Below, piece by piece: positions 16,753 through 24,586 of a DNA stretch of 64,000 nucleotides. The notes beneath the pieces were generated by a model that saw only the letters and a program-made list of their open reading frames with translations, had not been told where the DNA came from and did not search any database. Within the stretch, counting starts at the first letter, position 1, and each line of letters starts with the position of its first letter. The stretch comes from the human T2T-CHM13v2.0 reference genome, Homo sapiens, in NCBI RefSeq assembly GCF_009914755.1, contig NC_060938.1. The stretch is one strand, 5' to 3'. The position numbers were made by a program, and so were the translations under genes.

Positions 16753-18571
<1,819 letters not shown>

Positions 18572-18744
18572 TGAGTAATAGCTCATGGATTCGACTGATC
18601 AAATTCCCCAAACATTTAAAACCATTACGTAATCTTTCAAACTGTAGTTAGGAGTTTAATAGTCTGAAATCTCTCAAATGCTTCAGACACTTTATAAGGA
18701 AGACTCGTGAATCCAACGATGAACCCCAACAAGATCTATCAAAG

Positions 18745-20172
18745 AAATCCATGCACAGAGGCACCCTAGTCACACTGCTAAAGATCACAATCTTAAAATC
18801 CGTGCACAGAGGCGTCCTAGTCACACTGCTAAACATCACAATCTTAAAATCCATGCACAGAGGCGTCCTAGTCACACTGCTGAACATCACAATCTTAAAA
18901 TCCATGCACAGAGGCGTCCTAGTCACACTGCTAAAGATCGCTGTCTTAAAATCCATGCACAGAGGCGTCCTAGTCACACTGCTAAAGATCACAGTCTTAA
19001 AATCCATGCACAGAGGCATCCTAGTCACACTGCTGAAGATCACCATCTTAAAATCCATGCACAGAGGCGTCCTGGTCACACTGCTAAAGATCACCATCTT
19101 AAAATCCATGCACAGAGGCGTCCTGGTCACACTGCTGAAGATCACAATCTTAAAATCCATGCACAGAGGCACCCTAGTCACACTGCTGAAGATCACAGTC
19201 TTAAAATCCATGCACAGAGGCACCCTAGTCACACTGCTGAAGATCACCATCTTAAAATCCATGCACAGAGGCATCTTAGTCACACTGCTGAAGATCACCA
19301 TCTTAAAATCCATGCACAGAGGCATCTTAGTCACACTGCTGAAGATCACCATCTTAAAATCCATGCACAGAGGCGTCCTAGTCACACTGCTAAAGATCAC
19401 CATCTTAAAATCCATGCACAGAGGCGTCCTAGTCACACTGCTGAAGATCACAGTCTTAAAATCCATGCACAGAGGCGTCCTAGTCACACTGCTGAAGATC
19501 ACCATCTTAAAATCCATGCACAGAGGCACCCTAGTCACACTGCTGAAGATCACCATCTTAAAATCCATGCACAGAGGCGTCCTAGTCACACTGCTGAAGA
19601 TCACCATCTTAAAATCCGTGCACAGAGGCGTCCTAGTCACACTGCTGAAGATCACAGTCTTAAAATCCATGCACAGAGGCACCCTAGTCACACTGCTGAA
19701 GATCACCATCTTAAAATCCATGCACAGAGGCGTCCTGGTCACACTGCTGAAGATCACAGTCTTAAAATCCATGCACAGAGGCACCCTAGTCACACTGCTG
19801 AAGATCACAATCTTAAAATCCATGCACAGAGGCGTCCTGGTCACACTGCTGAAGATCACAGTCTTAAAATCCATGCACAGAGGCACCCTAGTCACACTGC
19901 TGAAGATCACCATCTTAAAATCCATGCACAGAGGCGTCCTGGTCACACTGCTGAAGATCACAATCTTAAAATCCATGCACAGAGGCACCCTAGTCACACT
20001 GCTGAAGATCACCATCTTAAAATCCATGCACAGAGGCGTCCTGGTCACACTGCTGAAGATCACAGTCTTAAAATCCATGCACAGAGGCACCCTAGTCACA
20101 CTGCTGAAGATCACCATCTTAAAATCCATGCACAGAGGCGTCCTAGTCACACTGCTAAAGATCACAATCTTA
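18745..20172. repeat. VNTR: 28 x 51-bp unit AAATCCATGCACAGAGGCGTCCTAGTCACACTGCTAAAGATCACAATCTTA
   Basis: 1428 bp = 28 x 51 with no indels. Variation is confined to a few positions per unit. Confidence 0.98.
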
Positions 20173-20249
20173 AAAATAGCCAGAGAACAATGACGTATTA
20201 CCTGTAGAGGAACAATGATTTAAATGACTGTGGATTTCTCATCAGAAAC

Positions 20250-24119
<3,870 letters not shown>

Positions 24120-24586
24120 GGAAGTTGTTTTTATTTTTTTACTATTTTTAATTTTTTTAAAGAGGTTTATTTGGCCCACAATTCTGTAGCTGGAAAGTCC
24201 AAGATTGGGCAGCTGCATCTGGTGGGGACCTCATGCTGCTTCCACTCATGGTGGGAATTGGAAGGGGACCAGGTGTGTATCAAGAGATCACATGGTAGGC
24301 CGGGCATGGTGGCTCAGGCCTGTAATCCCAGCACTTCAGGAGGCCAAGACAGGCGGATCACGAGGTCAGGAGTTTGAGATCAGCCTGGACAACATGGTGA
24401 AACCCCATCTCTACTAAAAATAGAAAAATTAGCCAGGCATGGTGGCCCATGCCTGTAATCCCAGCTACTCAGGAGGCTAAGGCAGGAGAATCACTTGAAC
24501 CCGGGAGGCGGAGATTGCAGTGAGCCAAGACTGCACCACTGCACTCCAGCCTGGGTGATGGAGCAAGACACCACCTCAAAAAAAAA

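What the first reader, a model, noticed from the sequence alone, without database searches (positions are those of the whole stretch)
18745..20193. 51-bp VNTR born in frame from L1 ORF1, giving a 480-aa repeat ORF (+) and a 505-aa ORF (-)
Seen: exactly 28 units without indels. The + frame repeats (M/V)HRG(V/T/I)LVTLLKIT(I/V)LKS and runs straight into IAREQ*RITCRGTMI*MTVDFSSET. Established: that matches the L1 ORF1p stretch K.TPRHIIVKL.K....KILKAAREK..ITY.G..IR.TADFSSET. Inference: the array is an amplified 17-codon slice of a dead L1 ORF1, probably seeded by the A-rich AAAT microhomology at both ends, and it keeps the ancestral frame. If translated it would be a basic, hydrophobic, aggregation-prone polymer whose length scales with allele size. 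Caveat: 3 of 6 frames are open (a second ATG-less + frame reads KIHAQRRPSHTAEDHHL), and (61/64)^17 = ~0.44 per frame is the chance expectation. The ATG context is weak (tccATGc), so ORF length alone is not evidence of coding.
Basis: partly seen in the sequence, partly recalled or inferred. Interest (0 to 1): 0.7.

Follow-up and report, generated by a model that had tools for sequence, protein, structure and literature searches.

The report
Intronic minisatellite from dead L1 ORF1
A 51-base piece of a long-dead L1 retrotransposon gene has been copied head to tail 28 times inside an intron of TECPR2, and its long open reading frames are what chance gives, so it is an ordinary, already catalogued variable repeat rather than a new gene.

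Summary
TRF finds a 51-bp array at 18745-20175 with 28.1 copies, 93% matches and 0% indels. The + ATG ORF is 480 aa. The - ORF is 493 aa from ATG, and 505 aa only from a GTG.

The L1 ORF1 origin also holds. The last unit plus its 3' flank, read in the ORF frame, hits only LINE-1 ORF1p chains in the PDB (4 of 4). It aligns end to end with a genomic L1 ORF1 fragment that passes Pfam Transposase_22 at 6.8e-29.

The ORFs carry no coding signal. A 51-base unit leaves a frame open 44% of the time, and three or more open frames of six arise in 41-54% of controls. Differences between units show no synonymous excess. The array is intronic on both strands according to the hub's gene table.

The locus is already in published VNTR catalogues as chr14:102379148-102380274 (GRCh38). 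It measures 1126 bp in the reference and 1098 +/- 60 bp in 18 assemblies. One weak length-expression association exists, with ZNF839. CHM13 carries a long allele of 1431 bp.

Verdict: an ordinary transposon-derived intronic minisatellite of low interest.

The parts
18745..20175 (+). 51-bp minisatellite (VNTR): 28 full units plus 3 bases, in TECPR2 intron 2, 2,210 bp after exon 2 and 27,064 bp before exon 3
   Evidence: TRF; unit table; distances; exon places from the hub's gene table
19663..20121 (+). Units 19-27: sub-array with a 102-bp (two-unit) higher-order period
   Evidence: Mean differences are 4.5 between neighbouring units and 0.57 between units two apart. In units 1-18 the figures are 2.65 and 3.5. 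Unit-type order is ...ABQBACABA
18751..20193 (+). 480-aa ATG ORF in the ancestral L1 ORF1 frame; by-product of a stop-free unit whose length is a multiple of 3
   Evidence: pI 12.0, GRAVY +0.87
18648..20129 (-). 493-aa ATG ORF on the opposite strand (505 aa from the GTG at 20165; 523 aa stop to stop, up to 20219)
18723..20207 (+). Second open + frame, 494 codons stop to stop; no ATG ORF of 100 aa or more in it
18712..18744 (+). Near 5' flank, homologous to the L1 ORF1 sequence just upstream of the unit; homology further upstream is faint
   Evidence: MAFFT with paralogues L012, L026 and L022. One weak colinear blastn hit to L026, E 0.036. No hit at E<=1e-3
20176..20249 (+). 3' flank: L1 ORF1 RNA-binding-domain remnant continuing the unit's frame, with two stops
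   Evidence: PDB LINE-1 ORF1p hits; Pfam Transposase_22 E 0.13, below cut-off; BLASTP and tblastn against the L014 ORF1 fragment; blastn to 15 of 19 paralogous loci
20250..20537 (.). Later insertion of a dispersed repeat that splits the L1 ORF1 remnant. The 5-bp direct repeat GAAAC flanks it at 20245-20249 and 20538-20542
   Evidence: Read. The own-genome search gave 5182 candidates, of which 40 were scored, yielding 67 other matches
21499..21631 (+). C-terminal (dsRBD-like) part of the same L1 ORF1, colinear and on the same strand, separated from the rest by Alu insertions
   Evidence: Pfam Tnp_22_dsRBD E 0.0049, below cut-off. tblastn of L014 residues 163-178 at 21499-21546, E 0.79. SRP-like Alu matches lie between

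Best explanation
This is a non-coding, copy-number-variable minisatellite in intron 2 of TECPR2. It was made after an old L1 element had already decayed at this spot. A 51-bp piece of the L1 ORF1 RNA-binding-domain region was duplicated in tandem. That piece corresponds to about 21 codons of ORF1 and had already lost 4 of them. The array then grew and was partly homogenised by unequal exchange or replication slippage, most recently in two-unit (102-bp) steps at its 3' end. The unit is 3 x 17 bases long and happens to lack stops in three of six frames, so every copy added lengthens three open frames automatically. The 480-aa and 493-aa ORFs are a geometric by-product and not genes. The array most likely has no function, or at most a small length-dependent effect on nearby gene expression. 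What is shown: the array, its L1 ORF1 origin and frame, its uniqueness in the CHM13 genome search, the chance level of the ORFs, and published length variation. What is inferred: the mechanism of birth and growth, and neutrality.
For: Array: (28.1 copies, 0% indels). Origin: (4 of 4 PDB hits are LINE-1 ORF1p, best E 9.4e-4). (the flank protein finds 7785 candidate places genome-wide, 150 scored). (unit 28 plus flank aligns to 15 of 19 fetched paralogous loci at E<=1e-3; L013 73.5% over 136 columns covering query 2-128, L026 72% over 132 columns covering 1-128). (L014 fragment: Transposase_22 6.8e-29; the window peptide aligns 1-44 with one 4-residue gap, E 7e-11). (tblastn E 1.85e-07 at 20122-20262 in the ORF frame). 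(dsRBD-like part downstream). Single locus: (the DNA search of the own genome returns only this array). Chance level of ORFs: (per-frame open probability 0.44; P(>=3 of 6 open) 0.41 in shuffles of the unit, 0.54 in random 51-mers of the window; P(>=1) 0.96). No coding constraint: (11 variant alleles; synonymous/non-synonymous 5/6 in the ORF frame, 1/10 and 3/8 in the other open frames, and 6/5 in a closed frame). Intronic on both strands: hub gene table. No Rfam match inside the array. The single strand folds worse than 198 of 200 shuffles. Variation: Lu et al. 2021, supplementary file 1 row 9066 gives ref.len 1126 and asm.len 1098.1, SD 59.7, n=18. Its informative 21-mer occurs once in the window, in unit 2. 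Growth in 102-bp steps.
Against: Lu et al. 2023 list the locus as a length eVNTR for ZNF839 in one GTEx tissue (p 2.8e-4, q 0.020, slope -0.16), so a small regulatory effect is not excluded. No RNA, ribosome-profiling or proteomic data could be consulted, so the absence of translation is inferred and not shown. The far 5' flank aligns poorly to L1 copies (no blastn hit at E<=1e-3). Only 1 of 3 paralogues tested in three frames each gave a Pfam hit. The window's own fragments stay below Pfam's cut-offs.
Confidence: 0.88

Rival explanations
1. The array is a cis-regulatory VNTR. Its copy number tunes expression of a neighbour (ZNF839, TECPR2 or CINP), for example by multiplying a protein-binding site or by changing intron chromatin or transcript elongation.
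For: Listed as a length eVNTR for ZNF839 in Skin_Not_Sun_Exposed (p 2.8e-4, q 0.020). It lies 2.2 kb from TECPR2's first coding exon. Alleles differ in length: 1431 bp here against 1126 bp in GRCh38.
Against: There is one tissue-gene pair, with a marginal q. It is flagged 'eqtl False' in the 2021 study. It is absent from the fine-mapped table of the 2023 paper (file 5, 0 occurrences). All 5 TECPR2 eVNTR rows in that paper point to another repeat at chr14:102525618. The paper itself says most eVNTRs are linked to nearby eQTLs (passage seen). None of the RefSeq enhancer or silencer marks in the hub's table overlaps the array. The eMotif table (file 4) was cut when stored, so a motif-level association may have been missed.
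Confidence: 0.1
2. One of the array-spanning ORFs is translated from a retained intron or an unannotated transcript. It would give a basic, hydrophobic 17-residue-repeat polypeptide whose length follows allele size.
For: The ORFs exist. 26 of 28 units carry an in-frame ATG. The + product would have pI 12.0 and GRAVY +0.87.
Against: Open frames are at chance level. There is no synonymous excess, and a closed frame looks as 'constrained' as the ORF frame. The ATG context is weak. The array is intronic in TECPR2 and in the antisense lncRNA model (hub table). The predicted tryptic peptides appear in 0 papers of the searched library. The only Pfam match of the polymer (LytTR, 0 stretches passing) is a repeat artefact.
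Confidence: 0.02
3. The resemblance to L1 ORF1 is fortuitous and the repeat arose from unique intronic DNA.
For: The window's fragments do not reach Pfam gathering scores, and the far 5' flank aligns poorly.
Against: Independent lines agree: PDB hits to L1 ORF1p only, thousands of dispersed genomic relatives, end-to-end DNA alignments to paralogues, a BLASTP alignment to a certified ORF1 fragment, and colinear downstream ORF1 pieces.
Confidence: 0.01

Closest known systems
Transposable-element-derived minisatellites (Ahmed & Liang 2012, PMC3389668; abstract and passages read)
   Same: A tandem array born from an internal piece of an inserted TE and expanded locally. The abstract states that at least 7,276 tandem repeats, or 23% of human minisatellites/satellites, are TE-derived.
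   Different: This locus was not found in their supplementary file 2, either by coordinate prefix or by four 12-14-mers of the unit. The unit here happens to be an in-frame slice of ORF1; that paper's main text has 0 occurrences of 'ORF1'.
Catalogued human VNTR locus chr14:102379148-102380274 (danbing-tk; Lu et al. 2021 PMC8275641, Lu et al. 2023 PMC10234305; supplement rows read)
   Same: It is the same locus. The position predicted from the TECPR2 start (102362963 + 18745 - 2536 = 102379172) is within 24 bp. The catalogue's informative 21-mer matches unit 2 of the window exactly and only once.
   Different: The rows seen do not give its L1 ORF1 origin or its ORFs. The CHM13 allele (1431 bp by TRF) is about 6 units longer than GRCh38 (1126 bp) and about 5.6 SD above the mean of 18 assemblies. 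The boundary definitions differ, so this comparison is approximate.
Intronic regulatory VNTRs such as TERT intron 6 VNTR6-1 (38-bp unit; PMC11830802) and the CACNA1C intron 3 repeat (PMC12452837); search-listing abstracts only
   Same: Intronic minisatellites with units of tens of bases and dozens of copies, variable between people.
   Different: Those have strong links to traits or splicing. Here there is only one marginal expression association.
Exonic protein-coding VNTRs and repeat-derived peptides from intronic expansions (recalled from general knowledge, no call)
   Same: A repeat whose unit length is a multiple of 3 gives a polypeptide whose length scales with allele size.
   Different: Those repeats lie in exons or are shown to be translated. 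This one is intronic, with chance-level ORFs and no expression evidence.

Membership tests
Minisatellite / VNTR | Head-to-tail copies of a unit of about 10-100 bp | tested here: met
   Period 51, 28.1 copies, 0% indels; unit table
Minisatellite / VNTR | Copy number differs between individuals | tested here: met
   1431 bp in this assembly, against 1126 bp in GRCh38 and 1098.1 +/- 59.7 bp in 18 assemblies in a published table. Locus identity is confirmed by a 21-mer. I compared no further genomes myself.
L1 ORF1 (Pfam Transposase_22 / RNA-binding domain) derived sequence | Significant similarity to L1 ORF1p, in one frame, across unit and flank | tested here: met
   4 of 4 PDB hits are LINE-1 ORF1p. 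BLASTP E 7e-11 over residues 1-44 against an ORF1 fragment that scores 100.5 bits on Transposase_22. tblastn E 1.85e-07.
L1 ORF1 (Pfam Transposase_22 / RNA-binding domain) derived sequence | The window's own fragment reaches the Pfam gathering score | tested here: not met
   13 bits against a cut-off of 22.4 for Transposase_22; 17.3 against 22.2 for Tnp_22_dsRBD. This is expected for short, decayed, interrupted pieces. It bears on 'intact domain', not on descent.
L1 ORF1 (Pfam Transposase_22 / RNA-binding domain) derived sequence | Neighbouring parts of the element lie colinear on the same strand | tested here: met
   ORF1 residues 99-149 map to 20122-20262 and residues 163-178 to 21499-21546. 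A dsRBD-like match lies at 21551-21631. No Pfam hit for ORF2 domains was found at E<=1 in 20537-24138.
Protein-coding gene / de novo ORF | Open frame longer than chance allows | tested here: not met
   P(>=3 of 6 frames open) is 0.41-0.54, and P(>=1) is 0.96, for 51-base units
Protein-coding gene / de novo ORF | Substitution pattern showing purifying selection in the ORF frame | tested here: not met
   5 synonymous and 6 non-synonymous variant alleles in the ORF frame, against 6 and 5 in a closed frame. With only 11 alleles the test has little power.
Protein-coding gene / de novo ORF | Present in mature RNA and translated | not testable with these tools
   Intronic in both annotated transcripts (hub table). 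No RNA-seq, Ribo-seq or MS data were on hand. The peptides occur in 0 papers.
Expression-associated VNTR (eVNTR) | Reproducible association of length with expression of a nearby gene | tested here: inconclusive
   One pair (ZNF839, one skin tissue, q 0.020). 'eqtl False' in the earlier study. Not in the fine-mapped table. No TECPR2 entry in the supplements of two other VNTR studies.

The most novel reading that the evidence does not exclude
The array is read by ribosomes from a retained TECPR2 intron or an unannotated transcript. Each person would then make a very basic, hydrophobic repeat polypeptide descended from the L1 ORF1 RNA-binding domain. Its length (about 22 to 28 units of 17 residues) would follow their allele, making it a natural, polymorphic, transposon-born repeat protein.
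Probability: 0.02. Interest if true: 0.6.

Novelty: already known. Interest (0 to 1): 0.12.

Why it matters
It matters little. It is a tidy example of a dead transposon gene seeding a minisatellite. It also shows that any stop-free repeat whose unit length is a multiple of 3 produces impressive but meaningless ORFs, which is a useful warning for ORF-based scans of repeat-rich T2T sequence. The locus is already in VNTR catalogues. Three details are of some use: its L1 ORF1 ancestry, the 102-bp higher-order growth zone, and the fact that CHM13 carries an unusually long allele. That last point is relevant to anyone using CHM13 as the reference for genotyping this repeat near TECPR2, a gene that papers in the listing mention alongside spastic paraplegia and dystonia.

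Tried and rejected
1. Paralogous L1 ORF1 copy inside the window, to serve as a single-copy comparison: none found. The best off-locus blastn hit was 33 bp at E 0.017.
2. Pfam on the 5' flank (P0001): 0 families.
3. Pfam on the whole polymer: LytTR E 2.6e-06 with 0 passing stretches, and DUF6142 E 0.082. I rejected both as repeat-bias artefacts.
4. Pfam on three paralogues in three frames each: only L026 gave Transposase_22 (E 0.0017). L013 and L012 gave nothing at E<=0.01.
5. Hairpin-driven slippage: three units fold at -9.5 kcal/mol, worse than 198 of 200 shuffles (z +1.89). No structure supports it.
6. Structured RNA: the Rfam E-value scan of 18000-21000 gave 10 matches, all in the flanking Alus and all below gathering scores, and none in the array.
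7. Literature on this locus. 'TECPR2' + 'VNTR' gave 1 irrelevant abstract book. 'TECPR2' + 'tandem repeat' + 'intron' gave 4 unrelated papers. 'L1 ORF1' with tandem repeat, minisatellite and expansion listed nothing specific in the 12 papers shown.
8. Supplements. Bakhtiari 2021 and the 2024 Cell Genomics study hold no TECPR2 entry. Garg 2021 (PMC8206010) is not held, and bioRxiv supplements are closed. Some files were cut or unreadable: file 1, file 4, and files 1-2.
10. L1 ORF2 endonuclease-like sequence near 22340-22590: seen by eye only, with no Pfam support at E<=1.

Full report
**1. The observation**

Tandem Repeats Finder reports one dominant array at 18745-20175: period 51, 28.1 copies, 93% matches, 0% indels, score 2421. 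Cutting the sequence every 51 bases from 18745 gives 28 units in perfect register. Only 10 columns vary. The 29th 51-mer differs from the consensus at 37 of 51 positions, so the array ends sharply.

Under the standard code:
- The - strand has an ATG ORF 18648..20129 of 493 aa.
- Stop to stop, three of six frames are open: 513 and 494 codons on +, 523 on -.
- The ATG context is AAATCCATGC in 26 units and AAATCCGTGC in 2.
- The + product would have pI 12.0 and GRAVY +0.87, so 'basic and hydrophobic' is correct as a description.

**2. Where the unit came from**

I translated unit 28 plus the 3' flank in the ORF frame, with X at the two stops.
- Against all PDB chains it hits four distinct sequences, and all four are LINE-1 ORF1p (E 9.4e-4, 1.5e-3, 1.6e-3 and 0.11).
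- Pfam gives Transposase_22, the L1 RNA-binding-domain model, at E 0.13, below the cut-off.

The window's own assembly (3.1 Gb) could be searched.
- The same 44-residue peptide finds 7785 candidate places, of which 150 were scored. That is the signature of a dispersed repeat.
- I fetched 19 of these places (L012-L030). At the DNA level, unit 28 plus flank aligns to 15 of the 19 at E<=1e-3.
- Two alignments cover the whole unit and flank. L013 has 73.5% identity over 136 columns (query 2-128). L026 has 72.0% over 132 columns (query 1-128).
- One place, L014, keeps a 195-codon open frame that passes three Pfam L1 ORF1 models above their cut-offs: Transposase_22 6.8e-29, Tnp_22_dsRBD 5.7e-11 and Tnp_22_trimer 9.3e-5.
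- The window peptide aligns to residues 99-146 of that frame over its full length: 20 of 48 identical, 69% positives, one 4-residue gap, E 7e-11.
- tblastn of the frame against the window puts its only significant hit at 20122-20262, in the ORF frame (E 1.85e-07).

So the 17-codon unit is a slice of about 21 ORF1 codons that has lost four, and the array keeps the ancestral frame.

The evidence is weaker on the 5' side.
- The 5' flank plus unit 1 gives no blastn hit at E<=1e-3 and only a short colinear hit to L026 (E 0.036).
- In a MAFFT alignment, roughly the last 33 bases before the array (18712-18744) line up with three paralogues. Identity over 18590-18744 is only 44-52%.
- Of three paralogues scanned in three frames each, only L026 gave a Pfam hit (E 0.0017).

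**3. The rest of the element**

The ORF1 remnant is cut at 20249/20250 by a 288-bp insert (20250-20537) bounded by the direct repeat GAAAC (read).
- The insert is itself a dispersed repeat: 5182 candidates in the genome, 40 scored. Most copies carry about 75 bp more between the two halves.
- I recall its ends as those of a MaLR-type LTR in reverse orientation. That is memory, not a test.
- ORF1 then resumes for about 25 bases (20538-20562, by eye).
- It is interrupted again by Alu copies, seen as SRP-like Rfam matches below threshold.
- It reappears at 21499-21631: tblastn of residues 163-178 at E 0.79, and Pfam Tnp_22_dsRBD at E 0.0049.

The pieces are colinear and on one strand. The picture is an old L1, riddled by later insertions, in which one 51-bp piece was amplified.

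**4. Are the ORFs meaningful?**

No. In a repeat whose unit length is a multiple of 3, a frame is open through the whole array if its 17 circular codons lack a stop.
- For random 51-mers of this window the per-frame probability is 0.44, the same as (61/64)^17.
- Three or more open frames of six occur in 54% of random window 51-mers and in 41% of shuffles of the unit.
- At least one open frame occurs in 96-97% of both controls.

Among the 11 variant alleles that distinguish units (8 transitions, 3 transversions), the synonymous/non-synonymous split is:
- 5/6 in the ORF frame;
- 1/10 and 3/8 in the other two open frames;
- 6/5 in a frame that is closed.

There is therefore no sign of constraint, although 11 alleles give little power.

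Other checks agree.
- By the hub's gene table, the array lies in TECPR2 intron 2, 2,210 bp after exon 2 and 27,064 bp before exon 3. It also lies in intron 1 of the antisense lncRNA model.
- No Rfam family matches inside it.
- The single strand folds worse than 198 of 200 shuffles.
- The predicted peptides occur in none of the searched papers.

**5. How it grew**

There are 18 distinct unit types, in the order FGHIJKLCMADDNOEAEPABQBACABAR.
- In units 19-27, neighbours differ by 4.5 positions on average but units two apart differ by 0.57.
- In units 1-18 the figures are 2.65 and 3.5.

The 3' third therefore has a 102-bp higher-order period, the mark of recent two-unit duplications. The two edge units differ from each other at only 2 positions. 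In register, the two ends of the array share just AAA. Birth by slippage or unequal exchange is an inference.

**6. What is already in print**

Lu et al. 2021 (PMC8275641, supplementary file 1 row 9066; row read) lists chr14:102379148-102380274 in GRCh38.
- ref.len is 1126; assembly length is 1098.1, SD 59.7, n=18.
- len.vst is 0.0043 and eqtl is False.
- The informative k-mer is a 21-mer that occurs exactly once in the window, in unit 2.
- The position predicted from the TECPR2 start in the same papers' tables is 102379172, 24 bp away.

Lu et al. 2023 (PMC10234305, Supplemental Data S2 row 14037; row read) lists the locus as a length eVNTR for ZNF839 in one skin tissue: p 2.8e-4, slope -0.16, q 0.020.
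- It is not in their fine-mapped table. Their eMotif table was cut when stored.
- All 5 TECPR2 eVNTR rows concern a different repeat at 102525618.

Ahmed & Liang 2012 (abstract read) state that 23% of human minisatellites/satellites derive from TEs. This locus was not found in their supplementary list.

So both the kind and the locus are known. I did not see its L1 ORF1 ancestry stated in the rows or passages I read.

The CHM13 allele (1431 bp) exceeds GRCh38 by 305 bp, about 6 units or three 102-bp steps. It lies about 5.6 SD above the 18-assembly mean. TRF and the catalogue draw boundaries differently, so this comparison is approximate.

**7. Verdict**

This is an ordinary TE-derived intronic minisatellite with chance-level ORFs. 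My odds are:
- neutral or nearly so, 0.88;
- weak cis-regulatory effect, 0.10;
- translated, 0.02.

Primate orthologues, population long-read alleles, RNA and proteomic data, and Dfam naming could not be consulted here. These are listed as next steps.

Noticed in passing
window 20250-20537 (direct repeats 20245-20249 and 20538-20542): A 288-bp dispersed repeat is inserted into the L1 ORF1 remnant and is flanked by the 5-bp duplication GAAAC. Most genomic copies have about 75 bp more between its two halves. From memory, its ends look like a MaLR-type LTR in reverse orientation.
   Followed up: partly
window 18235-18518 and 20563-21490: Alu copies bracket and split the old L1. One lies just upstream of the 5' flank and three lie between the ORF1 pieces. 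They show as below-threshold SRP, mir-1268 and mir-3135 Rfam matches. Short direct repeats at their edges were seen by eye.
   Followed up: partly
window 18745-20175 against GRCh38 chr14:102379148-102380274: The CHM13 allele is about 305 bp (6 units) longer than GRCh38 and about 5.6 SD above the mean of 18 published assemblies. The excess equals three of the 102-bp two-unit steps seen in units 19-27.
   Followed up: partly
outside the window: GRCh38 chr14:102525618-102525901: A different tandem repeat downstream of TECPR2 is the lead length eVNTR for TECPR2 in five GTEx tissues in Lu et al. 2023, with p down to 1.1e-07.
   Followed up: no
window 22340-22590: By eye, the sequence reads like the end of an L1 ORF2 endonuclease region on the + strand, colinear with the ORF1 remnant. 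No Pfam match at E<=1 supports this.
   Followed up: partly
window 18751-20190 (+ ORF translation): The repeat polymer scores E 2.6e-06 on Pfam LytTR with no single stretch passing. This is an example of a repeat-driven false positive.
   Followed up: yes
window 17967-18012: A small AT-rich 24-bp tandem duplication, 1.9 copies.
   Followed up: no
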